From: Trypanosoma brucei
Lineage: Eukaryota
DNA: 64,000 nucleotides
Reading direction: 5' to 3'
Assembly (NCBI GenBank): GCA_000002445.1
Contig: CP000066.1
Coordinates: 1,184,001 to 1,248,000 of the forward strand
Numbering within the stretch: the first letter of the stretch is position 1; each line of letters begins with the position of its first letter. Made by a program: the position numbers and the translations under genes. This document shows positions 31,353-56,639 of this stretch, in pieces. The notes beneath the pieces were generated by a model, which was not told where the DNA came from, searched no databases, and saw nothing but the letters and a program-made list of their open reading frames with translations.

Positions 31353-33122
31353 CTATTCGAGGCGTGCCGGTGCAGTGTTGTTTCCGATGCGGACCTGCTC
31401 GCCACCGGCACCAGAGCTGCGCAGTAAGCGCGCCCTCTTGATTTCCTCGCGTTCGGCGGCAATCTTCACCTCCTCCTGCTTCGTCAGGTGCGAGCGGTAC
31501 TCCACCATCTTGCTGCGGCGTGTAAGCACCTCCTCGTTGTTCTCGTCCACAGGGTGGTTGAACTCGATGCCAGCAGCGTCCAGAGCCTCCTCTGACTCCT
31601 TGAACTCCTCCAACGCCTTCGCCTGCTTCTCTTTCAGCATCGCCAGCTCCTCCTCTACGCCCTGGCGCAGCCTGTATAGCTCTTTCTTCATGTCGGCGTG
31701 CTTCTTCGCATTCGGGTCGAATGTTTCCACACAGAACTCCAACTGGATGTGCGTTGTACGGATGTTCCGGTCAATCTCCTCCATCCGCTTCTCTTTCTTG
31801 TAGATAAGAGAACCCAACGTGAGGTACAGCATGCGGAAGTACTCCAAGTGCTCTTTATGAACATCCAAACGAAGGGCTGCAAGATCCTGGCTCGTTTTGT
31901 CGTGGCGGGCCTTCACCGCGGCACAGCCCTCCGACACCAGCTCCTCCACCAGCCCGGTACAGCGGATCGCGAGGTCGCAGTTGTACACTGTCAGCTCGAG
32001 CAGTTTCTTGTGCTGCGAGGCAACCTCCAGGAATTGAGAGTACTCCACACGTCGCTTCTCCTCGCGGTCAATCTCCTCAATCCGCCGCTTGACCTCATCG
32101 AATCGCTCCGTGCCAAGCTTCTGCAACTGCCGCTCAAGGTCCTGGATCTTGTTCCACGTCTCCTCCTGCCTATCCTCGTTCTCTCGGATGTAGCGGTCGC
32201 TTTTCTCTTTGTTCGCAGCGTGGCGCTTCGTCGCCTCGGCATCCTCAAGGTCAGCCTTCTGGATCGCGTCGTGGATGTGCTTCAGATCTGTCTCACACCG
32301 CTGCTTCAGGCGACGCTTCGCATCCTTCATCTGACTCGTTTCCTGATTCGCCTGTTTCTGCACCTCATGGATTTTGCTGAAGGCCTGGTTCTCCTCCTCA
32401 CATTTGCTGATCAAGCGGAATTTGTCCTGAATCAGATCGATTAAGCGCTCCTGAAGCTGTACCTTCGTCCACATTTGCTCCTCGGCGACCTGCATCTCAC
32501 CATCATGCATCGCAACGTTCTGGATCTCGTTCGTTTTTTCAAGCTGCGCCAACTGCGTCTTGATCTGGTCGTCAGTTGAGGCAAGCGCATTCTGGATTTG
32601 CGTTACGTTCATGATATCCTCCACTTGCTTCAATGTCTGTGTGGGGACCTGCGCCAACTGCGTTGCATCCAGCTGCGAGCGGCGAAGCTCCTCCTCAACC
32701 TTTTCAACCTTCGCGATGGCGTTGTCGATCATCTGCGTGAAGCTCACAACACGCGTCTTGTTGCGGTTCTGACGCAGGTCCTGAAGCACCTTTTTCATGG
32801 CAATAATGTCCATGAATTGTGCCTTGTCCTCAGGGCGGTAAAGCTCGCGTTGGCTCATCTCGAGTCCACACACGCGCATCAGCTTTGCGAGGTCGTATAC
32901 CTCCGTTAGGTTCCATTTCGTACCGACGTCCACAGCGGCAACCAGCTCCTCAGCCTTCAGGTGGGCGCCGCGCAGCTTCTGCCTCTGTGTCTCGCTCCAG
33001 TCAGATACATGCAATTCCTGTACAAGTTCCTCATTCTCCAAACAGGCTGTCTTCAGCTTCAGGTTGTGGATCTTCTGCTTGCGCGCAGCCTCCAAACCAG
33101 TGGCATCGTCAACTGCGGCCAT
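31353..33122 (-). CDS. PFR1: Paraflagellar rod major component, copy 4 of 5.
   Basis: Identical 589-aa translation, in a repeat unit of period 2163 bp. Confidence 0.9.
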   Translation of the reverse strand: MAAVDDATGLEAARKQKIHNLKLKTACLENEELVQELHVSDWSETQRQKLRGAHLKAEELVAAVDVGTKWNLTEVYDLAKLMRVCGLEMSQRELYRPEDKAQFMDIIAMKKVLQDLRQNRNKTRVVSFTQMIDNAIAKVEKVEEELRRSQLDATQLAQVPTQTLKQVEDIMNVTQIQNALASTDDQIKTQLAQLEKTNEIQNVAMHDGEMQVAEEQMWTKVQLQERLIDLIQDKFRLISKCEEENQAFSKIHEVQKQANQETSQMKDAKRRLKQRCETDLKHIHDAIQKADLEDAEATKRHAANKEKSDRYIRENEDRQEETWNKIQDLERQLQKLGTERFDEVKRRIEEIDREEKRRVEYSQFLEVASQHKKLLELTVYNCDLAIRCTGLVEELVSEGCAAVKARHDKTSQDLAALRLDVHKEHLEYFRMLYLTLGSLIYKKEKRMEEIDRNIRTTHIQLEFCVETFDPNAKKHADMKKELYRLRQGVEEELAMLKEKQAKALEEFKESEEALDAAGIEFNHPVDENNEEVLTRRSKMVEYRSHLTKQEEVKIAAEREEIKRARLLRSSGAGGEQVRIGNNTAPARLE

Positions 33123-33515
33123 GGTAGCACTCTTTTATTAAGGATAATCGATTTCTTGTGTTGAAAGTTGTGTGATTTCTGTCTGGTGCTTGAAGTTCTT
33201 ACGTGATGTTTCTAGATCTTATTCCTTGCTTTCCTACAAGCTATTGCGAAAAACTGTTTGCCGGACGCGTACAAGATGATGAAGAAAAGTGTGAGCATCA
33301 GTGCAATGTTAAAGCTACACAGGCAAGTGGTGGTGCCGGAAGCCGTCGGTTTGGCACAATAACAGAGCGGATGCTCGAAAACGCATCATGGTGACCTACA
33401 TATACCGACCCAGTTGGGCCTTTATTACATCTAGTACAAGAATAAGAAAAGACTGCACAAGACATTGGCATCAAATAACTAGTTGCACTCAATTTACATA
33501 ATAATTGCGGCCACA

Positions 33516-35285
33516 CTATTCGAGGCGTGCCGGTGCAGTGTTGTTTCCGATGCGGACCTGCTCGCCACCGGCACCAGAGCTGCGCAGTAAGCGCGCCCTC
33601 TTGATTTCCTCGCGTTCGGCGGCAATCTTCACCTCCTCCTGCTTCGTCAGGTGCGAGCGGTACTCCACCATCTTGCTGCGGCGTGTAAGCACCTCCTCGT
33701 TGTTCTCGTCCACAGGGTGGTTGAACTCGATGCCAGCAGCGTCCAGAGCCTCCTCTGACTCCTTGAACTCCTCCAACGCCTTCGCCTGCTTCTCTTTCAG
33801 CATCGCCAGCTCCTCCTCTACGCCCTGGCGCAGCCTGTATAGCTCTTTCTTCATGTCGGCGTGCTTCTTCGCATTCGGGTCGAATGTTTCCACACAGAAC
33901 TCCAACTGGATGTGCGTTGTACGGATGTTCCGGTCAATCTCCTCCATCCGCTTCTCTTTCTTGTAGATAAGAGAACCCAACGTGAGGTACAGCATGCGGA
34001 AGTACTCCAAGTGCTCTTTATGAACATCCAAACGAAGGGCTGCAAGATCCTGGCTCGTTTTGTCGTGGCGGGCCTTCACCGCGGCACAGCCCTCCGACAC
34101 CAGCTCCTCCACCAGCCCGGTACAGCGGATCGCGAGGTCGCAGTTGTACACTGTCAGCTCGAGCAGTTTCTTGTGCTGCGAGGCAACCTCCAGGAATTGA
34201 GAGTACTCCACACGTCGCTTCTCCTCGCGGTCAATCTCCTCAATCCGCCGCTTGACCTCATCGAATCGCTCCGTGCCAAGCTTCTGCAACTGCCGCTCAA
34301 GGTCCTGGATCTTGTTCCACGTCTCCTCCTGCCTATCCTCGTTCTCTCGGATGTAGCGGTCGCTTTTCTCTTTGTTCGCAGCGTGGCGCTTCGTCGCCTC
34401 GGCATCCTCAAGGTCAGCCTTCTGGATCGCGTCGTGGATGTGCTTCAGATCTGTCTCACACCGCTGCTTCAGGCGACGCTTCGCATCCTTCATCTGACTC
34501 GTTTCCTGATTCGCCTGTTTCTGCACCTCATGGATTTTGCTGAAGGCCTGGTTCTCCTCCTCACATTTGCTGATCAAGCGGAATTTGTCCTGAATCAGAT
34601 CGATTAAGCGCTCCTGAAGCTGTACCTTCGTCCACATTTGCTCCTCGGCGACCTGCATCTCACCATCATGCATCGCAACGTTCTGGATCTCGTTCGTTTT
34701 TTCAAGCTGCGCCAACTGCGTCTTGATCTGGTCGTCAGTTGAGGCAAGCGCATTCTGGATTTGCGTTACGTTCATGATATCCTCCACTTGCTTCAATGTC
34801 TGTGTGGGGACCTGCGCCAACTGCGTTGCATCCAGCTGCGAGCGGCGAAGCTCCTCCTCAACCTTTTCAACCTTCGCGATGGCGTTGTCGATCATCTGCG
34901 TGAAGCTCACAACACGCGTCTTGTTGCGGTTCTGACGCAGGTCCTGAAGCACCTTTTTCATGGCAATAATGTCCATGAATTGTGCCTTGTCCTCAGGGCG
35001 GTAAAGCTCGCGTTGGCTCATCTCGAGTCCACACACGCGCATCAGCTTTGCGAGGTCGTACACCTCCGTTAGGTTCCATTTCGTACCGACGTCCACAGCG
35101 GCAACCAGCTCCTCAGCCTTCAGGTGGGCGCCGCGCAGCTTCTGCCTCTGTGTCTCGCTCCAGTCAGATACATGCAATTCCTGTACAAGTTCCTCATTCT
35201 CCAAACAGGCTGTCTTCAGCTTCAGGTTGTGGATCTTCTGCTTGCGCGCAGCCTCCAAACCAGTGGCATCGTCAACTGCGGCCAT
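33516..35285 (-). CDS. PFR1: Paraflagellar rod major component, copy 5 of 5 (the most upstream copy in the transcription unit).
   Basis: Identical 589-aa translation. It carries one synonymous difference from the other copies near 35051 (GTA to GTG, Val). Confidence 0.9.
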   Translation of the reverse strand: MAAVDDATGLEAARKQKIHNLKLKTACLENEELVQELHVSDWSETQRQKLRGAHLKAEELVAAVDVGTKWNLTEVYDLAKLMRVCGLEMSQRELYRPEDKAQFMDIIAMKKVLQDLRQNRNKTRVVSFTQMIDNAIAKVEKVEEELRRSQLDATQLAQVPTQTLKQVEDIMNVTQIQNALASTDDQIKTQLAQLEKTNEIQNVAMHDGEMQVAEEQMWTKVQLQERLIDLIQDKFRLISKCEEENQAFSKIHEVQKQANQETSQMKDAKRRLKQRCETDLKHIHDAIQKADLEDAEATKRHAANKEKSDRYIRENEDRQEETWNKIQDLERQLQKLGTERFDEVKRRIEEIDREEKRRVEYSQFLEVASQHKKLLELTVYNCDLAIRCTGLVEELVSEGCAAVKARHDKTSQDLAALRLDVHKEHLEYFRMLYLTLGSLIYKKEKRMEEIDRNIRTTHIQLEFCVETFDPNAKKHADMKKELYRLRQGVEEELAMLKEKQAKALEEFKESEEALDAAGIEFNHPVDENNEEVLTRRSKMVEYRSHLTKQEEVKIAAEREEIKRARLLRSSGAGGEQVRIGNNTAPARLE

Positions 35286-43813: not shown

Positions 43814-45331
43814 CTAATATGCTCTGCCTCGGTCAAGATTTGGAGGCGACCACTCATTAACGATAAGTTCGGGGAAAACATTAGGTTTCAAAGTTGAAGT
43901 ACCAAGAAGCATATTGACACACTCTTGGAACCCTTGGGTTATTGCAGGGTAAGCTGTATGGAGCTGACTCAGGTTATAAATCGATTCGCGATTATGAATT
44001 GCCAATGAAGCCAACTCAATAATGCTGCTTGCATGCGGTCCAACAGCTCGCACACCAAGAACCTGCATTTTGTGATCATTTGTAACGATAAGCTTCACAA
44101 AACCGCTCGTATTGCCCATTGCGAGGGCCCGACCCACAAATTCATAACCGTACCTGGCCACCTTGTATGCTATGTGTTCCTTCCTGCATTGTTGCTCATT
44201 GCGACCTACAGCGGCCACCTCCTGATCAAGAAACATAATCGTCGACAGATTGTCCAGGCGTTGAATAAGTTCTCCCTCCGGATATGGACGATACATATGC
44301 TCAATACAGGAACGCGCTTCCAACTCCCCAACGTTAACAAGCGCCACCCTTGAGCCGACATCACCACACGCATAAATATGCTTGTGTGGAACAACGCAAT
44401 AAAACTGGTCACGCTGGATTCGACCCTGCTTCAACTCAACACCGATTTTGTCGAGTCCAATGCTACCCACATTTGGATCCCTTCCTATTGAAACCAACGC
44501 CTTGTCGACCACGTGGTCTGTTAGCCTGTTGTCTCTCAAATCACGCAGCGTGTAACGGAATTGGCCGCCCTCCACCTTGTTGCTTTGCAAAGCAGAATGG
44601 TGGTGAAAATTGACCATCTTTGCCTCCAGGAGCTTCTGAACGAAGAGAGCAACATCATCATCTTCCATTGGCAATATTCGATTAGACTTTTCAATAACAT
44701 TTACTTCGGTAAGTCCAAAGTTCGCAAATATCGATGCAAACTCACATCCTATAACGCCAGCGCCGATAATGACAATGCTTTTCGGAAATGGTTGAGTCAT
44801 TATATCATCGGAAGTGAAGACAACCTCACCGTCGGCAATTACGGAAGCATGTTTACGAGGTTGAGCGCCGCACGCAATGACAAAGTAGTCGGCCCGTACC
44901 TCCTCAATGCCTCCACCCAACAGTTTAACATCGACACTGTGAGGTGACGTAAATGACCCATGACCACATATAACGTCAACGCTAACCTTCTCAAGCTGAT
45001 GAAGAATCTGGCCGTGACGGAACTCTGCTGCGCAATCTATTGATTTCTTAATATTCGAAAAATCAATACATGGGAGAGCTTGACGGCACTTCATAAAACG
45101 ATTGGCGGTTTGGCCGTTCATAAGGCGGACGAATTTTGCCATTTCCCATAACGTCTTCGACTGTAGCGCACCGTTCCAAAGGTCAGCACCTCCAATCCGT
45201 GATGACTCGATTATGCAAGCCCTTTTTCTATAATCCACAGCCCGCAACGCGGCGGCCACTCCTGCAGGTCCTCCCCCTATGACACAAACATCCACATTTT
45301 TCGCCCAGCTGAGCCGGGTTTTAGCAAACAT
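43814..45331 (-). CDS. Dihydrolipoamide-dehydrogenase-like flavoprotein lacking the redox-active disulfide (a 'point-mutant' LipDH paralogue, likely a pseudoenzyme).
   Basis: The 505-aa ORF has an FAD-binding GxGxxG motif (VCVIGGGPAGVAAA), an NAD-binding GxGxxG motif (IIGAGVIGCEF) and a C-terminal dimerisation region with a His...Glu pair. The canonical GGTCLNVGCIPSK active-site box is replaced by GGADLWNGALQSK, so both cysteines are lost. Confidence 0.6.
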   Translation of the reverse strand: MFAKTRLSWAKNVDVCVIGGGPAGVAAALRAVDYRKRACIIESSRIGGADLWNGALQSKTLWEMAKFVRLMNGQTANRFMKCRQALPCIDFSNIKKSIDCAAEFRHGQILHQLEKVSVDVICGHGSFTSPHSVDVKLLGGGIEEVRADYFVIACGAQPRKHASVIADGEVVFTSDDIMTQPFPKSIVIIGAGVIGCEFASIFANFGLTEVNVIEKSNRILPMEDDDVALFVQKLLEAKMVNFHHHSALQSNKVEGGQFRYTLRDLRDNRLTDHVVDKALVSIGRDPNVGSIGLDKIGVELKQGRIQRDQFYCVVPHKHIYACGDVGSRVALVNVGELEARSCIEHMYRPYPEGELIQRLDNLSTIMFLDQEVAAVGRNEQQCRKEHIAYKVARYGYEFVGRALAMGNTSGFVKLIVTNDHKMQVLGVRAVGPHASSIIELASLAIHNRESIYNLSQLHTAYPAITQGFQECVNMLLGTSTLKPNVFPELIVNEWSPPNLDRGRAY

Positions 45332-46711
45332 TAAAATTATTCGGTAAACCTGATACGATAGCAGGGAAATAATTAGCGGAAGTAAGAGTTTTTCTCAGGC
45401 AGAAGCGACAGAAAGTTAAAATACGCAGCTGAGGGTTATCGTAGAGAGTCAGATGAGCACATATATTTATCTTATGGGAAGTCAAATGGCACACACTGAA
45501 GGAAAGCAGCAACACAAACACCCTATTATACCACTTCCTTCCTCTCAGCGGTGCTTCTAAAACCATTCCCCTTCACTCCCTCCTCCTAGAGCGGACGCGA
45601 CCAGGTGCAAGAGAACGAGAAGGAAAGGCGCAGCGGGCAGATCTGGCCATCCGGACGAGAACACACTAAGCATCCTGACTGAAAACGGCGGTGCTAAGCG
45701 ACAGTGAAGGTGAAAAAAAGAACCACAACAGCAGTGTTACAGCAGACAGCGACACGCATGCAAATTTCGCTTTGCAAGTCAAAGGTAATGGGGAGCGAGG
45801 GGAGTTGGCAAGCGTCCACCGGTAGTGTGGAGCGCGAGGCCCGCGCAGTTCGCCCCACCCTCCATTAACCAGGCCAAACGAGCCAAACAAATCGAAAGGG
45901 GGAAAAGCACGACCACTCCTGAGAGCGACAATATTGCACCCAACCCTTCACACACATCCGTACGGAACCGGAGGCTGCATGAAATTCCGCCTACGGTCAG
46001 CCCAGCATCGGGAATATGGCTCAGCACCGCGCACCCAGCGGTCCCGCCCAGCCCCGCAATAATTCTAAGCAGCGGTCACCGCCCCGACGCCCCCATCACA
46101 TACTTCACCGTCCGAAAGCAAGGAAGCGGCCAGACGTACGTTCAGGCGGACGGGCGGCAACATAGCGCACAAAACCCGGGAGGGTAGTTCAACCGAAGGA
46201 AGCAGCTTCCTCCTCCCCCACCGGAGTCGACGTCAGCATCAAACGAGGAGGAAAACAAAGGAAGACCGGCACCATGCGGCCCCTCGAAAAGAGATATGTG
46301 CGGCGGGTGGTCAAAGCACCCGCGCAAGGAACATAATACTGCAAAGGGCTTTTAGCCCTTTAACGGGCGAGCACAGCCGGTCGGGTATATGACGACGGGC
46401 AAGGGGGCGGCGGATCTGTCCCTAAGAAACGCCGAAGCCATCTTTCACACTCCAGTGCCGCAACAACGCGGTTCCCCCGGGAGTGGGTGGGGCCCGTTTC
46501 TCAGCATGATTTTCCCTCGCCCGAACCCCACTTCGGCTCACTGACGAAAGCCTTTCCGCGCACAGACACCAACAAGAAGCACGACGCGGCAGAAAATCGT
46601 CACAGACGACCACGTAACGGTCTAGCGAACCACTTACACAGTTCCCTTCTTCGAGGGGTAATCCCTTCAGAGAGCCCCTCCTCAGCGGATATCACATAAC
46701 CAAGAGCCAGT

Positions 46712-46859
46712 TCAGTGTCTCACGCCCTTGTTTCCTGGGGGGAAAAAAGCATTGGGAGGGGGCGCGCTACTCGACTTCCCCGGCGCTGGTGGTGGTGACA
46801 AAGCGGTGCCCCCTCCCAATGCTTTTTTCCCCCCAGGAAACAAGGGCGTGAGACACTGA
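46712..46859. repeat. Perfect inverted repeat (palindrome) with 52-nt arms (46712-46763 and 46808-46859) separated by a 44-nt spacer.
   Basis: The reverse complement of 46712-46763 (..agtgtctcacgcccttgtttcctggggggaaaaaagcattgggagggggc) equals 46808-46859 exactly, by manual base-by-base comparison. It sits in a GC-rich, ORF-free region. Confidence 0.85.
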
Positions 46860-49523
46860 GGTGAAGGAGAACCTTCTGGATGCCCCTCCGAAGTGACCTG
46901 CTAACGACCCCACCGAATAACCGCCTACAGACCCCACTAATAAGCAACTGCCGCACCTTTTCGTTTGGTAACTGTTGATGCGGAGAGTGCGTTTCAACCC
47001 CAACTCCATTTGGCCTGAGGAAGCGGAAAGCATCATTTTGAAGAGGAGAGAAATGTTGACAAGCGCTGTCGTTCTAAGAGGGCAGGCCTAAATACAGTCA
47101 CTATCGAAGGGAGGGGTCACCTGCATAGAGGGCAAAAAACAAATTTGTTCAAGGAAAACCAACCAATCCGAACGATTTTTGATTCTCAAGGGTAAAAAAT
47201 CATCGATACAGCATCACGGATGATATCTAAATTCTTCCTTCGCGCCGTAAAGGGAACCCATTTGGCATCTCTACTGACATTTTCACTGTGTATTCAAGTC
47301 ATCCGTTATTTGTTTATTTATTTTAGAAACGATACACACTTACAAGCGGAGCGCGGCGTCACGTTTTCACCTTAACTCAGCAAGTGCAGGCCCTCTACAA
47401 CCGGAGGTTTGGAAGGGGGCGTTTCGTTTCGTTTGTGCACACCATCCTGCAGGAAAGCATGCCCCTCCACCCTTTCGTACAAAGGTCCGCGCACCACATA
47501 CAGCAAAACCAAGGGTCGAGCCCCCTCCTCTCCCCAACACACACGTAACATTTCAACATGTCGCTGGAAAATGATGCCCAAGGGCAATATATTGGAGGAG
47601 ATCCATTCCTACCAGTTGGATCACCCGAACCCTAACAAAAGCCGGCCACCTTTCTGGGGAATCAGCCCTTGAGTCACCCTCGGCGGCGGATGCAGGTTCC
47701 CTCGAACGTCAGGGAGGAAATCTGCAAAAAAAAAATGTAGTTTTACTCCACAGATCTCTGAAGGTTGATCAAACACACCGCTGTTGAGTTTTCTTTCTGT
47801 TATACAAATGCCCATCGTTGGTGCCATAACTTTCGCCTCCCCAAAATGGAGTGCGCTCTGATGCCACAGGCGTTCTGAGTTCCGCATCCCTAGCAACGGC
47901 TCCCAACCTATTTTCCGCGTGAGGATGGGCACAATTTCAAGGTCACGCAGAGCATACGCCCATAGTGCCTCTTTATTCTGTTTTCAAGAACACTGCGTTC
48001 GCTGGGGGCTATTACCCACATTAGCTCACCCAGTGGTCTTTGTTCTTCGTCCTTCACTTGAAAAATATCACTCTGGGAGCGCCTTTCCATTTGAGGCGTG
48101 TAGTTGTGTTAATGACCGGTTTATCCGGGACTGTGAAAGAACAGGCTTTGCGATCATGATGAGGGAGGCTAAGATTGGTGTTGATGGGCGGAAAATTCCC
48201 TCGCGATGCCGGCCACCTCATCATGGGTCTAGGGTCCAGTACACCATCTCATCGGGTTAAGCCAAGAGCCAGCAGCGTTCTTCTCCAGGGTAACACTGCT
48301 CTGCCCGGCTGCGGCATCATACAGCACAGGGATCAGCAGCGTCTTGCTGGGACACCGCTTTTCATTTGTCGGTCCCTGGGTGTGTGCCAGTGTGCCATCA
48401 GCGGCAGAACGGATGGTGTTTTCCTTGAAAAAGCTGTGCGTCTATTTTTCCGCAACCGTTTCAGCACTGCGATGGAAAGAATATTGAAAAAAAGTGTTTA
48501 ACAACAAGCTTAAGAGGAAAACTCAGTGATGAACAGTGTTGGCGATGGTGGAATTGTCTGTGCTCGTTGATTGTTGTGTGCATTGTGCGAGTGATAAAAG
48601 CGTGTTTTATCTACATGTTTCTTCCGTGCGTTCGTTTCCTTCAATATTATGCACTCTAGCCTTTAGGCGAAAGCCTAAGCATCCGCGCAGTTTCCGCACA
48701 TACCGCAATTTACACTCGTTATTTTTGGTTGTGTACTCGTTGCCGACGGCTGGAAACTCTGAGTGTGAAGAAATCGGGAATCTCTGTGGGGCCCGTGCTC
48801 TTGGACGTAATCTCACCGTTTGTGAAAAGAGCGCCTTCATTGCGGAGATCGGGTGGCCTAGTGGAATGAAAATGGTCAACACGTACCACTTCCCCCACAC
48901 AGGGACAAAAACGTGGTAGTTCCAGAGAGCGATCTGGGCAACAAATATAACCTTGCACAAGGAAGCTCTTTTTCACGGCATGCGCAACTTTTTTCTTTGT
49001 TTGAAGGATGCGGGTGCAAAGTTCGAACAGGTACGTCAAAGGCTTATGCGGGATGTCACTCTGTCCTTCGAAGGACCTTTCTCGTTCCGATACCAGTGCG
49101 CCAAAAACGAAACTTACGCGGAAACGCCTCCACGCGCAAACCTCTTCTCGCGGCGCCAGCTGTTGGGGAGACGGCAACGTCAACTAAGTAAAGGCCTCAA
49201 ACCCGACGGCAGCGGAACGAAAACAGGAACCGACGCCACGCATTCGGACGCCAGCCCCGGCGCTGCTGACCCGTCTCTTTTGAAGCAACACAAATCAAAA
49301 ATTTAAATAACAAGAACTTTGTCACGAGGTTAATTTTTCTCTCCGGAGCGGTTGTTGATTTAGAGCAGTTGCCTGAAGTCATGGTTAAGGGGTTCGGTTC
49401 CCCGGTCATCTGTCGTTTTTTCCATAAAGCGCTTTTCTCAGAGCCTTCGGCCGGCGTCGTGTAGCATACATAAATATAAGTACGTCAAATTTTAGTAAAT
49501 TTAGTAAAGAGGTCGGCGCACGT

Positions 49524-49604
49524 GTCACCATACCCAAGTGGTTACGGGGACTGACTAGAAATCAGTTGCGATCTCGCGCGCAGGTTCGAATCCTGCTGGT
49601 GACG
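49524..49604 (+). tRNA. tRNA-Ser (anticodon AGA), class II with a long variable arm.
   Basis: Cloverleaf fold: acceptor GTCACCA/TGGTGAC, D-arm CCC-AAGTGGTTAC-GGG, anticodon stem ACTGA/TCAGT with loop CTAGAAA, 13-nt variable arm, T-arm GCAGG-TTCGAAT-CCTGC (B box), discriminator G, followed by T6 at 49605-49610. Confidence 0.88.
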
Positions 49605-49610
49605 TTTTTT
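49605..49610 (+). terminator. Pol III oligo-T terminator for tRNA-Ser(AGA).
   Basis: TTTTTT immediately 3' of the discriminator base. Confidence 0.7.
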
Positions 49611-49809
49611 CGTCAATTCCCCGTGTTCCGCTGCTTTTGTCCAGTCAACTTTTTTCCGTAACAACAGCGATTGGGAATTGGGAAACGGTACGCGCACCAC
49701 AGGCCAGTTGTGACCACCAAGCAACACAGAGACGCCGCGGAGGACGGACAGCGTTGGGCAACACCGCTCCGAAGGGTGAAAACAATCAGCCGATTTGGGT
49801 GCGAAAAAG

Positions 49810-49891
49810 TGACAAGAGTGGGGTTTGAACCCACGCCTACGAATAGAAGAGAACTTGAGTCTCCCGCCTTAGACCACTCGGCCATCTTGCC
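49810..49891 (-). tRNA. tRNA-Leu (anticodon CAA), class II.
   Basis: The reverse complement gives GGCAAGA-TG-GCC-GAGTGGTCTAA-GGC-G-GGAGA-CTCAAGT-TCTCT, a variable hairpin (CTA-TTCG-TAG), GTGGG-TTCAAAC-CCCAC, TCTTGTC and discriminator A. A T5 run on the coding strand (A-run at 49804-49808) follows the 3' end. Confidence 0.88.
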
Positions 49892-49950
49892 ATCGACGGC
49901 CACAACAGATTTGTTTTAGACACTTTTTTTATTTATGCAATGCCAAAAAC

Positions 49951-50031
49951 CGTCACCAGCAGGATTCGAACCTGCGCGCGAGATCGCAACTGATTTCGAG
50001 TCAGTCCCCGTAACCACTTGGGTATGGTGAC
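49951..50031 (-). tRNA. tRNA-Ser (anticodon CGA), class II. It is identical to the plus-strand tRNA-Ser except for a single anticodon base.
   Basis: The reverse complement equals the 49524-49604 sequence except that anticodon loop CTCGAAA replaces CTAGAAA. A T5 run on the coding strand (A-run at 49945-49949) follows the 3' end. Confidence 0.88.
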
Positions 50032-53000
50032 ACCGCCTCGCCACCACCTCTCAAATGCGTTACCCTTGCACAAGCGATCGATGCCGTGATTTTTTTGTGC
50101 GTTTCTGTGCGATGCGGAGTGTGAAGCGGTTGGTGGTGGTTTGCCGTCCTCCAACGGACGGCCGCCAGTCACTTGTCGTATGAGCCGATAAAGCTGCGCC
50201 GGAGTTTTCCTGGAAGTCCTCTCTGAACAATATAACTGTGGGATGTGGACGCAGAAATTTGTAGGGCTTAAAGTCACGGCGTCAAGTTGCAGTGCCAGTC
50301 GTTGATGGGCGGGCCACCATCGGATAAGAAGGGTGGGGGACACTACGCGCCACAGAACAGCACTATGAGACTATAAAAATGAGGTAAAGCCGCACATGAG
50401 CTTGTTGTAGTCACTCAGTTATGTGGTGGAGCGTCTCACGAGTCGGCGCGGTGGCCATGGCAAATGGAAAGGACATTGGATCATCACAGTACCATTACAA
50501 GTGCACATCTTTCGGTGCTTTGTTTTGGAGTTAAAGAAGATGGAAGAGTCGGAAAATTTTCTTCAATTTAACACCACTAACTCAGTGCTCTTGAGCTTCA
50601 CTATCAACAGTTTCCGTTTGTGGCTCGTGTGTCCCAAGTGTCCACAAGGTTTGTACGCCTCGGGCCTCTCGGAACAGTAACGTGCCTGCGGATTGTGGAG
50701 AAAAAGTGGATAGTAAAATTAATGAATGTAGGGAGAACACGCCCTATGTACTGATTTTTTGTGAGCTTTTTTCTCGTGTTAGAGACTCACCCGCTCAAGT
50801 TACTGCATTCTTCAGGCTATGGGGAAGGCCATATTCAAGAAAATTGGCTGTGTGAACAGCAGCTGCCTCTGAATAGAGCAGGTGAATCACCGATTGGGCC
50901 TCCATGACTTTCCCACGGTGGGGAACATAAGAATTCCACATATTAATGTCCACGGAGCCGTGCAGATAGGCGTTTTTATGTTCCTAAAAACCTACTAGCG
51001 TCAACCGTGTTGGCACAACAGCGTTGAAGCCGTCTCTAGAGTCTCCGCTGTGGGGAGTAATCGGCGTTTACTTTCCTGTGAGATGCCCGTTCACCTCCAT
51101 TATTTCACGACATCAAAAAAAAAAACGTTCCAAACTTGGTTATGTGGATACTTAATGTTCAAGGGGTCAAGTACACGGGTCGAAAGTTTCATCGTTTCAA
51201 AAAATTTATTACCAGCAATGTTAGGTGTGTATTGAACTGTTTTTTCCGGGAAAAGTTGGTAAATGAATCTGTCATAGGGAAACTTGCCACCTTCACCAGC
51301 CCATTCTGAACAACAGCCCCCAGCATGTAGATTTTGAAATACGCATTGTTTTCCACGGGATTCGCACCGGTTTCTTCTGCGCGCCTTTGTGTTTTCGCTT
51401 ATCGCTCTGAAAGTCACATTTTTTTGTGGAAACATCTGCATGGTTCCCCTCGATTATTTCTTCGGTCCGGGCGCCGCATGTGCGTGAATTTCTGTCGATG
51501 TGTGTCCCAACAGTTGGATTGCCTCTTCAGTCTTTACTGAACCTTGTTGACTTCTACGTGCGCTGCGTGGGTTGCCTGCAGCGTGCTTAGGGTCATTTTA
51601 CCTTGGGATGCTCTCTGTTCCCGTGCCGAAGTGACGGCTGTAGTTGAACCGTTGTAATGAGCTTAAATGATCCTTTGCTGCGTGTCCAAAATGCTCAAGT
51701 ACTATGGACGCCCCACCCCCTGGGATGAAGTTGCCACACCAAGAGCACCGGCCACGATTACTCGTGCGGATGAAGCCGCGGACTTCCCACCGATTTGAAT
51801 GTCACCGTACTTATGGTCGTGTTGGGCGCCGTTGGCGTCTTACAAGCCACCAGCACTTTGACTCATGATGTTCCAGCGTCTTGTGTTTCATTTCCCGGAG
51901 TACTGGTTTTATCTGCTCTACTATACCAAATGTATGCGGTTGCTGCGATCCACGTGAGAAAATACGAACTGCGGTGCGCACTGCGTAAGTCTGTCTAGTC
52001 AAAGCTTTTATTTGGCCCTTTTCGCCGCATTTTCCGCTTGTAAAAAAAGTTGATCTCGGCACACTTTGTTTTACTTTCTCTAAATATTGCTCCAGTCAAT
52101 ATGTTTGGAGTCTTCTGCAGCCTCTTTCCCTATTTTTGGTGCCTTTGAATATTCTCGTCCAGCTAGTTTTTCTCTTTTTTTATTTTCTCTGGCTAGTCTC
52201 GCCTTTTCTCCTTCATAAATTAACTTATATAATTGGCGTTCTGCAGTTGCAAGTTTGTTGGTACTCTCGTTTATTCCGCTGCTTTTCTGGAGTATATCTT
52301 CCCTCCATCCTCATTTTTCCTACGTTCTCGTTTTTGCTGGACCACTGTAGTTGAACGCCGTTGTAATTTTCCTAACATCTGTTGAAACCCATTGAAACTT
52401 CATTGTGATCTCCACTCTCATATAGGTTGTGAAATTTGACAAGTCTTCTAAACATCGACTCACTGCCTTCGTTCGTGTCGGTTTCACGGGTATTGTGTCG
52501 CTTCAGTGGTGCAACCTGGCACTTGTGCGTGCGTGTCTGCTAAAAAATTTGTTTTCTCAACACAGAGAAGTGCTGGCATGGACTAGGTGCGTGGTGAAAC
52601 TACTAACCTACGTTGTTTTATTTTTTTTTGTTAAGTTATAAAAGGAAATCTGGAAAATTTGAAAGGTTATAAGATTCTGGCACAGTTGCCTCCTTTGTGT
52701 CTCCGATGTGCTGGTCAAGTCCTCCATGACTGTGCTCAACTGAATCAAGTATCATCTCTAAGTTTAGAAACGTCGCTACGATTCAAGAAAATGGCTTTCC
52801 CCCAGTTTGATTGCTTTTGCCGCTTCGGAAATGAAGTTGGTGGTGGCCGTCCATGGTCGAAACCTTTACTGGCGTATGCGTTTCTGCCCTTCCAAGCAGT
52901 CAAGTCGCTGAGCTACCACTCACCCCCTATTACGTTGCACACTCCATAGTAATGTCAGGGCCCATATTCCAGATGAGAGGGAAAACCGAGCGTGTTCATC

Positions 53001-55475
53001 AATTCTGTTCCTTAGTGATTGGGGCCGGCAGATGATTGTCGGCCTCCGGGGGGAGCAGGCATCAAAGTCATCGGTTCTCGGGGATGAAAAGGAACATCAC
53101 CTTACCCTTCTGCAATCGTGAGGGCACCTTTTCGGTGGTCTGTAGGCCAGCACAGTCATCAAGCACGCTCTACAAAAATAACCCGGACACAATCCCACAT
53201 GGATCGCAATGGGGAGCTAGGGAGCTCCCACAGCCGAAAAGATTCGCTTTGGCAAAGCAACTTCACAGTTACGACGTCAATTTCTGAATTTTGCGAGGAT
53301 TACGTGTGCCCAAAGAAGCGGAATACAAAAATGAAATATTAACAGAAGACCATAGAAATTGCACGGCCCTGAAAATGAAGACAGAACCAATACTTGAAAC
53401 GGGTAGCGACGGTATGCTTTGGGCCCCGCGATGTACAGGGAGGTATGAAAGAGCATCGGCTAAATCGATGCCGGGCAGGGGCTATAAGTCACATTTCTGC
53501 CAACATATCCCTAAAAAGCGGAAGCGGCCACAAGGCGAGCGCCGGATTCGCTCCGCCCAACAGTTAGCGCATTGATGACCGGTGCCGATATGAACTGGAG
53601 CAGTCGGGAGTTAGCTCCATACACACAGCCAGGCGAAGCAGGCTGCCTCGTCCAGGGGCATTTGGAAGGGAAACTGAGGAGAGCCAACTCTGGGAAGGCC
53701 GCAATAAAGCCTCGAAGGCGTAACTGGTCCTCACAGCTGGGCGTGGCCACATACGGAGGGTGCTGGGTATTAAACTGGAACTCGAAATTGAACTGAATTA
53801 GCGACAGCAATAGAATCATATTCTAAGTAGGGATGTGCATGAATGCTGATAAAGTCATTTTTTTTGTACTTTCACCACACACTACTCGCAGAATAAGAAC
53901 GATTGAATAGCTTGCCAACAAACACAGGTGCACGGGGTAAAGAATGGCTCGAGCGTGACCCAAAGAAAATAGGAATATAAAGGAGGTTACGCTATTGTCT
54001 CCGGTAAGAATGGAAACACAGACGACAACACCAAAAACAGATACACTGGCGCAACACTTCTTGAGCAAAGAGCTGAAAATCTTCTAAATGGAATGACGTT
54101 ATGTGACAATGTAAGCGGAAAAGTAGCGGAGAAACATAAGGTGAAAAGTCTAATCAAAGGAAAGACACAGAGTGATGGAGAGGAAAAACATTTAAGGCAA
54201 GAAACACAGAAACAGCAGCCATCAACTCAACCAATCAGGAATTCCCACCGAGGTTACAAAACACGCAAGAAATAATTGTCACCAGGCCATTGCCGATAAA
54301 GGGACGGCTGCAGCTGTAATATCACCGGGGGCTGAGGAAGTAAGGACATATTATTTCCATGGAACAAGCAAACTAACGCGCAGTTGCTGAGCAAAAGGTG
54401 TGGCAACGGAAGGAGGACCCAGAGCATTTATTGGCATTTGGGGAAACGGTTAAAGAGCGGAAGGACATTGGCGGCACTCGCCAACTTACTGTCCCCACGA
54501 TTAACTCTAAAAATAGGTCCTGCGAAAGTAAAGGAAGGGATGCTATGATGGACGTGGAAACACAGGGCGAAATTAACCAAAGGCGTAGAACCAACCATCA
54601 GGTCAACGTTTTCACACTGTCGGACAAAGAAAAATTATGAAATGGAGCGAAAACCCAACGAGGGCAACCTCACTTCAAAACAGTGCTCGGCGTGGTAGAC
54701 GGGGATTGCCACCGCAGTGGCGGAAAAGTTGAAAAGGAATGGCGAAGGGAAGCGGTACCCAATGTCTATGGCCAAAAAAAATATGAGAGGTCCTTGCCAA
54801 AGCGTGCCTCCCTCCGGGTAGTTCCGGCGAACTCACTGGAAAGCCAACAGCACGGTCGCGAATAGGGGCGCCCCGCACGTAACCGGGGGCTGTGTAGTGG
54901 GACTGAGAATTTTGTGGCAACTCCTCCTCCTCCTCCTACCTTTTACTGAGGTTCAAGTAACTTTTCCCTTTCCCCAGGAAATTGCAGGTCGAATTTTTGG
55001 CATTTCAGATGATGCGAATTATCGCTGTGAGTCGCTTGTGGCATCAGCAGTAAGAGCCTGGAAACGCCTCCGGGTCGCGTTTAAACCGCCCGGCTTCGAA
55101 CTAGCAGTGTGCGACGCACTGGGCCGGTGCCGTTGCGCACACAAAGAGGGCGGCTGCATTGTCAGCGGCTTATTCCAATATTGCGTGAGGGGCATTTCAG
55201 AAACTGCTGAACTTGTGGCGTTTGAGCATTTTTTCATTTAGAAAGGGAGAAAAGATGAGATATCTGCCATGCTACTTTTCGGATGAAGTAAGTTTGAGCG
55301 TTGCCGCAGCCCTGATAATGCGGCGGTGGGAGTGGTAGTGGCTAGATGATTTTAAATGTTACAGTGATTGGGTGGATGCTGTGGGTGAATTTTAAGTAGG
55401 AAAATGCGACCACTCAGAGGCTGCCTCTCCATTTGAGTTGCTGGTGTTTCGCGTTCGCGCAGGATATCCAATGGG

Positions 55476-56639
55476 TCATACGTCCTTCACTGCCCCTACC
55501 TCCGTCCTGAGTGATTGATGTCGCAAAGCGACATCCTCCACCTTGTAGAACTCCTTCTGCACAAGGTTGTCAAGCGCGTCGGCCACCAGGGCTTTCTGCG
55601 ACAACTGGGACCTGAGTTTCTTGCATTCCATGTCCGCCTGGCAGCTTATACGACTGATGCGTGCGCTAAGGTCGGCCCGACCATTATGTAGTTGCTCGAC
55701 ATCTGAAGATATTACCTCCACGTGTTGTTTTACACGCTGAAGGTTTCGAGTAACCCACTGTCTTGTCGTTTCTATTTCTTCCATGAGCAATGCCCGCGCC
55801 TGCTTCGCCTCGTTACCTAAAGTCACCACGGTGCCCGCAGTCTTGTCAACCTTTTGCTCCAGCGAACTGAGCGACTGGGTAATACCGTCAATTTTTTCTT
55901 GAAGCGGTGGAACCCGTGAATAATCCCGTCCTACTGACATCTCCAAATCCCTTAAAGAGCTTTCCACGAGCCGTAATTTTTCACGAAGGGTATCTTGCGC
56001 CTCTTGCCTTGACAAGTCCTTCTGCTCCGCCTCGCCCCACAGGGATGCGATCCGCTCCTCCACATCTCTTCTCACGTCACTCACTGTGTTTTCTATGCGT
56101 TGTTTCGTTCGTGCCGCTTGCTCTTCTCCGTCGGCTCGGATCTTCGCCAGATCACTCAAAAATGCTTGGTGGGCATCTTCTAATGTTTCCTGTACCTTGG
56201 AAATGATGAATTGTTTGAATGTTTCCATATCCTCTAACCTTGCACAGGCCTGCTCTAACCGTTTTAACCGCGACAGCAGCTCCTGCTGCTGAAACCTGAT
56301 GTCGGCCTCCTTTTCCTCTTGGATTCCTTGGGCTAGTTTCACCAACTTCGTAAGGTTCACCATTTTTTCATCGAACATACACACGCGGGCGGAGAGCTCC
56401 TCTACTCGATCAAGCAACTGCTGAACAGAGAAGGCGCCCTTCAACATCCACTCCACTCGTGACTCGGCGGCTGAGTCCACCTGTGCCGACCTTAAGGGCT
56501 CTTGAGGAGATACACTTTCCTTCTTTCGTGGCCGCAAATATATGTCAGTGTAGTCCATCGCTCGCACTGCGTCGGACAATCGTCTTGTTATGCTTTCCAA
56601 AAATAACAAAAGTAATGTAAAAGAGATGTGGGAGAGCAT
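55476..56639 (-). CDS. Hypothetical coiled-coil protein. The true start may be the internal Met (MDYTDIY...).
   Basis: The 387-aa ORF is dominated by heptad-like E/K/R/L/Q-rich sequence with no recognisable catalytic motif. It fits the same-strand gene run. Confidence 0.45.
   Translation of the reverse strand: MLSHISFTLLLLFLESITRRLSDAVRAMDYTDIYLRPRKKESVSPQEPLRSAQVDSAAESRVEWMLKGAFSVQQLLDRVEELSARVCMFDEKMVNLTKLVKLAQGIQEEKEADIRFQQQELLSRLKRLEQACARLEDMETFKQFIISKVQETLEDAHQAFLSDLAKIRADGEEQAARTKQRIENTVSDVRRDVEERIASLWGEAEQKDLSRQEAQDTLREKLRLVESSLRDLEMSVGRDYSRVPPLQEKIDGITQSLSSLEQKVDKTAGTVVTLGNEAKQARALLMEEIETTRQWVTRNLQRVKQHVEVISSDVEQLHNGRADLSARISRISCQADMECKKLRSQLSQKALVADALDNLVQKEFYKVEDVALRHQSLRTEVGAVKDV

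What the first reader, a model, noticed from the sequence alone, without database searches (positions are those of the whole stretch)
49524..50031. Compact Pol III cluster with a pair of near-identical class-II tRNA-Ser genes in inverted orientation that differ only at the anticodon (AGA vs CGA), flanking tRNA-Leu(CAA)
The plus-strand tRNA-Ser(AGA) at 49524-49604 and the minus-strand tRNA-Ser(CGA) at 49951-50031 are identical over 81 nt except for one base at anticodon position 34 or 35. The second gene therefore looks like a local inverted duplication followed by a change of anticodon. This is a neat example of a new tRNA isoacceptor arising by point mutation. All three genes end in oligo-T runs, and the cluster sits inside a gene desert between same-strand transcription units, a typical kinetoplastid tRNA location.
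Basis: seen in the sequence. Interest (0 to 1): 0.5.

Follow-up and report, generated by a model that had tools for sequence, protein, structure and literature searches.

The report
Conserved trypanosome Ser–Leu–Ser tRNA gene cluster
These are three ordinary, already annotated tRNA genes of Trypanosoma brucei; the two serine tRNA genes do differ only at the wobble base, but they are an ancient pair kept alike across trypanosomes, not a newly born tRNA.

Summary
ARAGORN and Rfam call tRNA-Ser(AGA)+ at 49524-49604, tRNA-Leu(CAA)- at 49810-49891 and tRNA-Ser(CGA)- at 49951-50031. The two Ser genes are identical over 81 nt except wobble position 34 (A at 49557, C at 49998). Each gene ends in a T5-T6 run. 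The cluster lies in a 10-kb ORF-poor gap between minus-strand genes.

The window is T. brucei chromosome 3, and the genes are already catalogued as Tb927.3.4393/4396/4399 (Padilla-Mejía 2009).

A recent local duplication creating a new isoacceptor is not supported.
- Both isoacceptors are single-copy in T. brucei and L. major (two genes in hybrid T. cruzi).
- Ser(CGA)-Leu(CAA) sits at the same syntenic spot in Leishmania, Phytomonas and six Trypanosoma species.
- Ser(AGA) sits next to the DLD gene in all six Trypanosoma species.
- The 81-nt body is the same in four of them.
- The T. brucei flanks show no similarity above chance.

So identity cannot date the event. It reflects purifying selection on a shared tRNA-Ser scaffold. 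Relatives add signs of sequence exchange between the copies: shared 3' flanks in T. melophagium (53 nt) and T. cruzi, a Leu-segment inversion in T. vivax, and shared compensatory changes in an environmental contig. Ordinary and already known.

The parts
49524..49604 (+). tRNA-Ser(AGA) gene (annotated Tb927.3.4393). It is class II with a long variable arm. The anticodon is at 49557-49559, with wobble A34 at 49557. The A box TACCCAAGTGG is at 49531-49541 and the B box GGTTCGAATCC at 49583-49593. The discriminator is G.
   Evidence: ARAGORN; Rfam 57.9 bits; box positions; annotation in the supplement of PMC2695483
49605..49610 (+). T6 run, the Pol III terminator of Ser(AGA)
   Evidence: read in the sequence
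49810..49891 (-). tRNA-Leu(CAA) gene (Tb927.3.4396), class II. The anticodon loop is at 49853-49859, the A box at 49874-49884 and the B box at 49821-49831. A T5 terminator lies at 49804-49808 on the minus strand.
   Evidence: ARAGORN; Rfam 54.3 bits
49951..50031 (-). tRNA-Ser(CGA) gene (Tb927.3.4399). It is identical to the Ser(AGA) gene except for wobble C34 at 49998; the anticodon is at 49996-49998. The A box is at 50014-50024 and the B box at 49962-49972. A T5 terminator lies at 49945-49949 on the minus strand.
   Evidence: ARAGORN; Rfam 59.2 bits; alignment
49522..50033 (.). Inverted repeat formed by the two Ser genes, with arms 49522-49610 and 49945-50033 (89 nt, 98% complementary). It encloses a 334-bp segment that carries Leu(CAA).
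   Evidence: the repeat finder
45332..55475 (.). A 10-kb ORF-poor gap between two minus-strand gene runs, with the tRNA cluster near its middle. It is the inferred Pol II termination and re-initiation boundary. No ORF reaches 155 aa, no Pfam domain or tandem repeat was found, and only the tRNAs are conserved in other species.
   Evidence: GC skew turns from negative to about zero or positive at 48-56 kb
43814..45331 (-). Dihydrolipoamide dehydrogenase paralog. It is the first gene downstream of the cluster (in the direction of Pol II transcription) and the syntenic anchor for Ser(AGA) in all Trypanosoma species examined.
   Evidence: Pfam; orthologs; loci
55476..56639 (-). Trypanosoma-conserved protein of about 360 aa with no Pfam domain. 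It is the last gene upstream of the cluster and the syntenic anchor for Ser(CGA)-Leu(CAA).

Best explanation
The locus holds three functional, single-copy, RNA polymerase III-transcribed tRNA genes of Trypanosoma brucei chromosome 3 (Tb927.3.4393 Ser-AGA, Tb927.3.4396 Leu-CAA, Tb927.3.4399 Ser-CGA). Each has internal A and B boxes and its own oligo-T terminator.

The two Ser genes are ancient paralogs that supply two of the UCN serine isoacceptors on one shared tRNA body. A34 is deaminated to inosine, so the tRNA acts as IGA and reads UCU/UCC(/UCA). CGA reads UCG. Seryl-tRNA synthetase does not read the anticodon. One scaffold (long variable arm, G73) can therefore serve both, and only the wobble base needs to differ.

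The near-identity in T. brucei is retained ancestral sequence under strong purifying selection. The same 81 nt occur in T. cruzi, T. theileri and T. melophagium. Over kinetoplastid evolution there has also been occasional non-reciprocal exchange or recombination between the two inverted copies, while selection keeps position 34 different.

The cluster sits where one minus-strand polycistronic unit ends and the next begins. It probably marks, and may help enforce, Pol II termination and re-initiation.

Shown here: gene calls, identity, synteny, conservation, compensatory stem changes, shared flanks in relatives. Inferred: inosine formation, decoding, the boundary function, gene conversion as the mechanism.
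For: Gene calls and structure:
- ARAGORN and Rfam call the three genes.
- The cloverleaf with a long variable arm is 100% paired in 10 distinct Ser sequences. Five pairs show compensatory double changes.
- A/B boxes and T runs are present.

Gene inventory:
- AGA, CGA and TGA Ser genes are single-copy in T. brucei and L. major. The decoded anticodon is listed as IGA (PMC2695483 Table 1).
- The genes are listed with matching coordinates.

Age of the arrangement:
- Ser(CGA)+Leu(CAA) lie just downstream of the ~360-aa gene ortholog in T. theileri, T. cruzi, T. vivax, T. melophagium, T. rangeli, L. braziliensis and Phytomonas, and in L. major chr29.
- Ser(AGA) lies upstream of DLD, in divergent orientation, in T. 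cruzi, T. vivax, T. melophagium, T. theileri and T. rangeli.

Conservation:
- The 81-nt body is identical in four Trypanosoma species for both anticodons.
- The T. brucei flank similarity is at the null level.

Exchange between the copies in relatives:
- T. melophagium: the 3' flanks are identical for 53 nt with 1 mismatch, score 51. T. cruzi: score 26. The shuffled null is 7.3 +/- 1.8, maximum 19. Flanks are not conserved between species, even between T. theileri and T. melophagium.
- Environmental contig L015 carries an AGA/CGA pair identical except at position 34. Both copies share 8 changes, in four compensatory pairs, relative to Trypanosoma.
- The T. vivax gene order equals the T. brucei order after inversion of the Leu segment between the two Ser genes.

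Boundary role:
- All flanking genes are on the same strand and GC skew changes across the gap.
- The literature links tRNA genes with Pol II termination and downstream start sites (PMC2695483; PMC5359979).
Against: In T. brucei itself nothing demonstrates gene conversion; conservation alone explains the identity.

In T. rangeli the two genes differ at 4 body positions, and in T. vivax at 2-3. Homogenisation is therefore neither continuous nor universal.

The organism behind L015 is unidentified. Its pair could be an independent, younger duplication rather than a product of concerted evolution.

The shared flanks come from draft assemblies.

No expression, modification or chromatin data could be examined here. 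Function as active genes and as a transcription boundary rests on sequence features and the literature.
Confidence: 0.85

Rival explanations
1. The CGA gene is a recent local inverted duplicate of the AGA gene in the T. brucei lineage. An anticodon point mutation then created a new isoacceptor.
For: The two genes are 80/81 identical, inverted and 346 bp apart. Isoacceptor shifts by mutation of the first anticodon base are a documented route in eukaryotes (PMC3923123).
Against: Ser(CGA) with Leu(CAA) is at this syntenic position from Leishmania and Phytomonas to all Trypanosoma species examined. Both anticodons exist in all three TriTryps. The body is identical across species, so identity does not imply youth. 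The T. brucei flanks show no residual similarity (score 6 against a null of 7.3). By contrast, apparently recent exchanges in T. melophagium and T. cruzi leave 33-53 nt of shared flank.
Confidence: 0.02
2. An ancient local duplication in the opposite direction. In the stem lineage of Trypanosoma, the Ser(CGA) gene was duplicated in inverted orientation next to itself. The copy mutated C34 to A and took over from an older Ser(AGA) gene located elsewhere, as still seen in Leishmania on another chromosome. Under this view the reader's mechanism is right, but it is old and runs the other way.
For: L. braziliensis and Phytomonas have only Ser(CGA)+Leu(CAA) at this locus. The L. major Ser(AGA) is on chr31 next to Phe(GAA), while Ser(CGA)/Leu(CAA) are on chr29. 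All six Trypanosoma species have AGA at the locus.
Against: Polarity cannot be determined. Trypanosoma against Leishmania+Phytomonas is a one-against-one comparison, and the only deeper contig found (L016/L017) has no tRNAs at the DLD locus. Relocation of AGA in the Leishmania/Phytomonas branch explains the data equally well. The Leishmania AGA sequence could not be fetched. Environmental contig L015 also has AGA next to CGA, but head-to-head. That hints that adjacency could be old, or could arise repeatedly.
Confidence: 0.3
3. Purifying selection alone. The two genes have never exchanged sequence since an ancient duplication, and all identity is due to constraint on the tRNA.
For: The body is invariant in four species. 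T. rangeli and T. vivax show independent drift of one copy. All observed substitutions keep the cloverleaf. This explanation is sufficient for the T. brucei window itself.
Against: It cannot explain the lineage-specific identical 3' flanks in T. melophagium (53 nt) and T. cruzi (~33 nt). These lie outside the mature tRNA and differ between species. It also cannot explain why both L015 copies share the same four compensatory pair changes.
Confidence: 0.2

Closest known systems
Annotated T. brucei TREU927 chromosome 3 tRNA cluster Tb927.3.4393 / .4396 / .4399 ('chr3' locus of Padilla-Mejía et al. 2009, BMC Genomics 10:232, PMC2695483)
   Same: It is the same object. The anticodons AGA, CAA and CGA, the strands, and the coordinates 1233524-1233604, 1233810-1233891 and 1233951-1234031 equal the window coordinates plus 1,184,000.
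   Different: Nothing differs in the genes. In the passages I read, the paper does not remark that the two Ser genes differ only at position 34, and it judged tRNA synteny among TriTryps to be weak. The synteny found here agrees with the later T. cruzi study (PMC12204681).
Isoacceptor anticodon shifts / tRNA gene recruitment (Rogers & Griffiths-Jones 2014, RNA 20:269, PMC3923123)
   Same: The two tRNA genes have the same amino-acid identity and differ by a substitution at the first anticodon base. This is the commonest kind of isoacceptor shift: 39 of 44 in that survey.
   Different: A shift is defined by orthologous, syntenic genes carrying different anticodons in related species. Here each syntenic ortholog keeps its anticodon across Trypanosoma. 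The one exception, T. vivax, is better explained by an inversion. No recent shift is detectable.
Concerted evolution of tRNA genes by intergenic conversion (own knowledge: serine tRNA genes sup3/sup9/sup12 of S. pombe, Amstutz et al. 1985 Cell 40:879; in general see PMC4981973)
   Same: Paralogous Ser tRNA genes stay alike within a genome. Lineage-specific flank sharing is seen in T. melophagium and T. cruzi, and shared compensatory changes in L015.
   Different: Conversion is inferred here from comparative sequence only. It is not evident in T. brucei, and it is not continuous (T. rangeli and T. vivax have diverged copies). The copies are closely linked and inverted rather than unlinked.
tRNA genes at boundaries of kinetoplastid polycistronic transcription units (L. 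major chr3 tRNA region; T. brucei termination and start sites; PMC2695483, PMC5359979)
   Same: The tRNA cluster lies in an ORF-poor gap between two same-strand gene runs. The composition changes across the gap, and a GT-rich block (on the sense strand) lies upstream of the next gene.
   Different: Termination and re-initiation at this particular locus were not tested here. Only sequence context is available.

Membership tests
Eukaryotic nuclear class-II tRNA gene (Pol III type-2 promoter) | Cloverleaf fold with a long variable arm, scored by a tRNA covariance model | tested here: met
   Rfam RF00005 gives 57.9, 59.2 and 54.3 bits against a gathering score of 29. ARAGORN calls the genes. All 23 pairs, including a 3-bp variable-arm stem, are 100% paired in 10 distinct Ser sequences, with 5 compensatory pairs.
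Eukaryotic nuclear class-II tRNA gene (Pol III type-2 promoter) | Internal A box (positions 8-18) and B box (GGTTCGAANCC in the T arm) | tested here: met
   Ser has TACCCAAGTGG and GGTTCGAATCC. Leu has TGGCCGAGTGG and GGTTCAAACCC. They fit the class-II consensus features described in PMC2695483.
Eukaryotic nuclear class-II tRNA gene (Pol III type-2 promoter) | Oligo-T terminator within a few bases of the 3' end | tested here: met
   T6, T5 and T5 start 0-1 nt after the discriminator base.
Eukaryotic nuclear class-II tRNA gene (Pol III type-2 promoter) | Transcribed, processed, aminoacylated with Ser/Leu; A34 converted to I34 in Ser(AGA) | not testable with these tools
   Needs tRNA-seq or northern data. 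Inferred because each is the only gene for its anticodon.
Recent segmental (inverted) duplication | Similarity extends into the flanks of the duplicated unit | tested here: not met
   T. brucei 3'-flank local score is 6 and 5'-flank score is 6, against shuffled nulls of 7.3 +/- 1.8 and 5.7 +/- 1.4. Identity stops at -2 and at the T run.
Recent segmental (inverted) duplication | One copy is absent from the syntenic locus of related species | tested here: not met
   Both Ser genes are present at the locus in T. vivax, T. melophagium and T. rangeli. In T. theileri and T. cruzi each gene was found separately, next to its anchor gene.
Isoacceptor anticodon shift (synteny-defined) | Orthologous tRNA genes in conserved synteny carry different anticodons in related species | tested here: inconclusive
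   In five of six Trypanosoma species, plus Leishmania and Phytomonas, the Ser gene paired with Leu is CGA, and the one next to DLD is AGA. In T. vivax the Ser gene in tandem with Leu is AGA. This would count as a shift. It is equally the result expected from an inversion by crossover between the two Ser genes 3' of position 34.
Concerted evolution by gene conversion between paralogs | Paralogs within a genome share lineage-specific sequence (including non-functional flanks) that orthologs in other species lack | tested here: inconclusive
   The feature is seen in T. melophagium (53-nt 3' flank, score 51), T. cruzi (score 26) and contig L015 (8 shared body changes). It is not detectable in T. 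brucei, T. vivax or T. rangeli.

The most novel reading that the evidence does not exclude
The inverted Ser(AGA)/Ser(CGA) pair is a long-lived, recombination-active unit in kinetoplastids. Repeated gene conversion and crossover between the two inverted copies homogenise the tRNA body and its 3' flank, and occasionally flip the enclosed Leu gene, as in T. vivax. Selection holds the wobble base different. The AGA copy at this locus itself arose in the Trypanosoma stem lineage as an inverted duplicate of Ser(CGA) with a C34-to-A shift, and replaced an older AGA gene. That would be a dated example of isoacceptor replacement in a genome where nearly every tRNA is single-copy.
Probability: 0.25. Interest if true: 0.35.

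Novelty: already known. Interest (0 to 1): 0.15.

Why it matters
For the window itself it matters little. These are catalogued housekeeping tRNA genes. Two isoacceptors sharing one body apart from the wobble base is a common state of eukaryotic tRNA families.

The useful lesson is methodological. Identity between tRNA paralogs cannot be used to date a duplication, because the 81-nt body has been frozen across four of the six Trypanosoma species examined.

The comparative by-products have modest interest for tRNA gene evolution in genomes with minimal tRNA redundancy. They are shared flanks in T. melophagium and T. cruzi, a Leu-segment inversion in T. vivax, and co-varying copies in an environmental kinetoplastid-like contig. 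The locus is also a clean head-to-tail PTU boundary that could serve in studies of Pol II termination at tRNA genes.

Tried and rejected
1. Other Pol III genes near the cluster (snRNA, 7SL, 5S, tRNA-like). Rfam at gathering score over the whole window, and at E<=10 over 48000-51500, gave only the three tRNAs plus noise hits (plastid or Listeria families at E of 1 or more).

2. ARAGORN at lowered thresholds gave 4-11 extra calls in 2.5 kb. One was 'Pro(cgg)' at 49363-49439, over an element with A-box-like and B-box-like motifs and a T6 run. I judged these spurious: the false-positive density is high, there is no Rfam support, and there is no conservation in other species.

3. Content of the 10-kb ORF-poor gap. 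Pfam on the 11 largest small ORFs found nothing, TRF found no tandem repeats, and tblastn with the genes called between the tRNAs in T. vivax, T. melophagium, T. theileri, T. rangeli and T. cruzi found nothing. blastn of their intergenic DNA matched only the tRNAs.

4. Outgroup for polarity. The deepest DLD relative with a long contig (L016/L017, 61% identity) has no tRNA near DLD. The T. grayi contig starts 131 bp upstream of DLD. The Leishmania Ser(AGA) sequence could not be fetched, because there is no protein anchor and no eukaryotic DNA search.

5. Testing the T. vivax inversion through flank orthology. The T. brucei AGA 3' flank against the T. vivax CGA 3' flank scores 13. This is the highest in its row but within the null range (maximum 19), so the test is inconclusive.

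6. Identification of the organism behind contig L015. Its ORFs are uninformative.

7. The 19-nt inverted repeat I2 (49334-49352 / 49763-49781, 79%) and the two 14-nt direct repeats were treated as chance.
Full report
**1. What is in the sequence**

ARAGORN finds exactly three tRNA genes in the 64-kb window:
- Ser(AGA) on the plus strand at 49523-49605
- Leu(CAA) on the minus strand at 49809-49891
- Ser(CGA) on the minus strand at 49950-50032

Rfam's tRNA covariance model confirms them at 49524-49604, 49810-49891 and 49951-50031. The scores are 57.9, 54.3 and 59.2 bits against a gathering score of 29.

Aligned, the two Ser genes are identical from two bases upstream (GT) through all 81 nt, with one exception. 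That exception is tRNA position 34, the wobble base:
- A at window 49557 in the plus-strand gene
- C in the minus-strand gene, read as G on the + strand at 49998

So the difference is at position 34, not 35.

The repeat finder reports the pair as an 89-nt, 98% complementary inverted repeat. Its arms are 49522-49610 and 49945-50033, and they are 334 nt apart.

Each gene is followed at once by an oligo-T run:
- T6 at 49605-49610
- T5 at 49804-49808 on the minus strand
- T5 at 49945-49949 on the minus strand

A and B boxes sit at the expected tRNA positions.

**2. Where this is**

All long ORFs in the window are on the minus strand. None of at least 155 aa lies between 45331 and 55476. The window also contains a five-copy tandem array of a 589-aa paraflagellar rod protein gene.

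The protein encoded at 55476-56639 is 100% identical to a T. brucei equiperdum protein.

The supplement of Padilla-Mejía et al. 2009 (PMC2695483) lists three genes on T. brucei chromosome 3:
- Tb927.3.4393 (Ser, AGA, 1233524..1233604)
- Tb927.3.4396 (Leu, CAA, 1233810..1233891, complement)
- Tb927.3.4399 (Ser, CGA, 1233951..1234031, complement)

These are the window coordinates plus 1,184,000. The cluster is thus an already annotated and published locus.

Table 1 of the same paper shows that Ser-AGA (decoded as IGA), Ser-CGA and Ser-TGA are each encoded by one gene in T. brucei and in L. major. In the hybrid T. cruzi strain each has two genes.

**3. Age of the arrangement**

I fetched syntenic loci using orthologs of the two flanking protein genes. 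One is the ~360-aa protein; the other is a dihydrolipoamide dehydrogenase (DLD) paralog at 43814-45331.

In the orientation of the protein genes, the tRNA content is as follows.

| Species | Gene order |
|---|---|
| T. brucei | [360-aa gene] – 5.4 kb – Ser(CGA)> Leu(CAA)> <Ser(AGA) – 4.2 kb – [DLD] |
| T. rangeli | Ser(CGA)> Leu(CAA)> – 1.7 kb – <Ser(AGA) [DLD] |
| T. melophagium | Ser(CGA)> Leu(CAA)> – 5.3 kb – <Thr(AGT) <Ser(AGA) [DLD] |
| T. theileri | The same two halves as T. melophagium, about 15 kb apart |
| T. cruzi | Ser(CGA)> Leu(CAA)> after the 364-aa gene; <Ser(AGA) 430 bp upstream of DLD |
| T. vivax | Ser(CGA)> – 0.9 kb – <Leu(CAA) <Ser(AGA) |
| L. braziliensis | Only Ser(CGA)> Leu(CAA)> between the two protein genes |
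| Phytomonas | Only <Ser(CGA) Leu(CAA)> between the two protein genes |

In T. cruzi the two halves are probably about 16 kb apart, with a trans-sialidase gene between them.

L. major has Ser(CGA)/Leu(CAA) adjacent on chr29 and Ser(AGA) on chr31 next to Phe(GAA).

Two conclusions follow. The Ser(CGA)-Leu(CAA) pair predates the split of Trypanosoma from Leishmania and Phytomonas. The full three-gene neighbourhood predates the radiation of Trypanosoma.

**4. Why identity does not mean youth**

The 81-nt body is identical, for both anticodons, in T. brucei, T. cruzi, T. theileri and T. melophagium. The T. vivax Ser(AGA) is also identical.

Variation exists elsewhere, and it respects the fold:
- T. 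vivax CGA has 2-3 changes.
- T. rangeli AGA has 4 changes, including a compensatory 29-41 pair.
- L. braziliensis CGA has two compensatory anticodon-stem pairs.
- Phytomonas CGA has two changes that give G-U pairs.

On an alignment of 18 Ser genes (10 distinct sequences), all 23 cloverleaf pairs are paired in 100% of cells. This includes a 3-bp variable-arm stem. Five pairs show changes on both sides.

Flanking DNA evolves fast. Even orthologous flanks of sister species score at the level of shuffled sequence. For T. brucei, the two Ser genes' 3' flanks (60 nt) score 6, against a shuffled null of 7.3 +/- 1.8. The 5' flanks score 6, against 5.7 +/- 1.4.

A recent duplication would have left shared flanks. 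None is present.

**5. Signs of exchange between the copies in relatives**

- **T. melophagium.** The 3' flanks of Ser(AGA) and Ser(CGA) are identical for 53 nt with one mismatch, score 51.
- **T. cruzi.** The flanks are alike for about 33 nt with one indel, score 26.
- Both scores exceed the null maximum of 19. These flanks differ between species, including between T. melophagium and its sister T. theileri.
- **Environmental contig L015.** A metagenome scan for this tRNA body with any base at position 34 found a 1,089-bp contig (L015). It carries Ser(AGA) and Ser(CGA) head-to-head, 65 bp apart. They are identical except at position 34. Both carry the same eight differences from the Trypanosoma sequence, in four compensatory pairs in the acceptor and anticodon stems. 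Two other contigs carry a Ser(TGA) with a related body.
- **T. vivax.** The gene order is what results if the segment between the two inverted Ser genes of the T. brucei-type order is inverted by a crossover inside the genes, 3' of position 34. Leu flips strand and remains about 60 bp downstream of a Ser gene, which now carries AGA. The CGA gene stays in place. This is an inference from gene order only.

Together these observations fit occasional gene conversion or recombination between the inverted copies. This is a known behaviour of tRNA gene families (PMC4981973; own knowledge: S. pombe serine tRNA genes, Amstutz et al. 1985). It is not continuous, since the T. rangeli and T. vivax copies have drifted apart. 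Nothing shows it in T. brucei itself.

**6. Most likely function**

The three genes are standard Pol III type-2 units with internal A/B boxes and T-run terminators.

Ser(AGA) is expected to be deaminated to I34. The Padilla-Mejía table lists IGA; the ADAT2/3 enzyme is own knowledge. It would then read UCU/UCC(/UCA). Ser(CGA) reads UCG and Leu(CAA) reads UUG. Each is the only gene for its anticodon in T. brucei, so all three should be essential.

Seryl-tRNA synthetase recognises the long variable arm and acceptor features, not the anticodon (established knowledge). This is why one body can carry either wobble base.

The position between two same-strand gene runs fits the reported association of tRNA genes with Pol II termination and downstream re-initiation (PMC2695483; PMC5359979). 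Two features of the window agree with this:
- The strand-typical negative GC skew is lost between about 48 and 56 kb.
- A GC-rich block that is GT-rich on the sense strand lies at 45500-47000, just upstream of DLD.

That role is inferred, not shown.

**7. Verdict on the interpretation**

It is a real and documented route: 39 of 44 isoacceptor shifts in PMC3923123 affect the first anticodon base. It surely underlies the ultimate origin of these paralogs.

It is not a recent event, however. It does not create a new isoacceptor, and the direction proposed (AGA giving rise to CGA) is the less likely one, because the CGA-Leu pair is the older resident of the locus.

An ancient CGA-to-AGA duplication in the Trypanosoma stem remains possible (about 0.3). 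It cannot be told apart from relocation of AGA in the Leishmania/Phytomonas branch without Paratrypanosoma or bodonid genomes.

**8. Dead ends**

- No further Pol III RNAs were found by Rfam.
- Low-threshold ARAGORN hits looked spurious.
- No domains, repeats or conserved sequence were found in the 10-kb gap apart from the tRNAs.
- The deeper outgroup contig had no tRNAs.
- The T. grayi contig was truncated.
- The flank-orthology test of the T. vivax inversion was inconclusive.

**9. Scores**

The object is already known, and interest is low (0.15). The comparative hints of concerted evolution are a small, publishable-as-a-note addition at best.

Noticed in passing
window 24864-35285 (-): There are five tandem copies (period 2163 bp) of a 589-aa paraflagellar rod protein gene (Pfam Flagellar_rod, E=6e-107). 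Each contains a 248-aa shadow ORF on the opposite strand.
   Followed up: partly
window 50032-55475: T. brucei has about 5.4 kb between the ~360-aa gene and Ser(CGA). The other species have only 250-690 bp there (T. cruzi 250, T. rangeli 419, T. melophagium 447, T. vivax 475, T. theileri 607, L. braziliensis 686). The extra DNA has no ORF over 114 aa, no Pfam hit, no tandem repeat and no similarity to the other species' loci. Its origin is unexplained.
   Followed up: partly
window 49361-49421 (+): About 100 bp upstream of Ser(AGA) on the same strand there is an A-box-like motif (TAGAGCAGTTG, 49361-49371) and a T-arm/B-box-like hairpin (GGGGTTCGGTTCCCC, about 49389-49403), followed by T6 (49416-49421). 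ARAGORN calls it 'Pro(cgg)' only at a lowered threshold. Rfam finds nothing at E<=10, and it is not conserved in other species. It could be a decayed tRNA or tRNA-like remnant, or chance.
   Followed up: partly
window 45500-47000: A GC-rich block (55-61% GC) lies just upstream of the DLD gene. It is G+T-rich on the sense (minus) strand. This is compatible with the GT-rich Pol II start regions described for T. brucei (own knowledge). It was not tested.
   Followed up: no
L009 (T. melophagium) 9012-9064 and 3396-3448: The 3' flanks of Ser(AGA) and Ser(CGA) are identical for 53 nt (1 mismatch), although the sister species T. theileri has different flanks at both genes. This looks like a recent gene-conversion tract that starts inside the gene.
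   Followed up: yes
L007 (T. vivax) 1208-2415; also L004 11567-12775: Leu(CAA) is on the opposite strand, and in tandem with Ser(AGA) instead of Ser(CGA). This is consistent with an inversion by crossover between the two inverted Ser genes 3' of the anticodon. The two T. vivax assemblies also differ by one base (T16C) in Ser(CGA).
   Followed up: partly
L015 640-866 (JGI metagenome contig Ga0169931_10365108): The contig carries a head-to-head Ser(AGA)/Ser(CGA) pair, 65 bp apart. The two genes are identical except at position 34, and both share four compensatory pair changes relative to Trypanosoma. The source organism is unidentified. L013 and L014 carry Ser(TGA) with a related body, next to Leu(TAG) and Met(CAT) genes.
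   Followed up: partly
L009 8853-8925 and L011 8736-8807: A tRNA-Thr(AGT) gene sits directly downstream of Ser(AGA) in T. melophagium and T. theileri only. It is absent from this locus in T. brucei, T. vivax, T. cruzi and T. rangeli.
   Followed up: no
L002 11601-15588 vs L005 5002-8980 (T. cruzi): A ~4-kb segment directly after Leu(CAA) in one assembly is 93.6% identical and colinear with the segment directly before Ser(AGA) in another. A trans-sialidase gene lies beyond it on opposite sides in the two assemblies. This suggests a ~4-kb direct repeat flanking an inserted surface-protein gene between the two tRNA halves, or else a difference between strains.
   Followed up: partly
window 49334-49352 / 49763-49781: A 19-nt inverted repeat (79% complementary) brackets Ser(AGA). 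It is probably chance.
   Followed up: no
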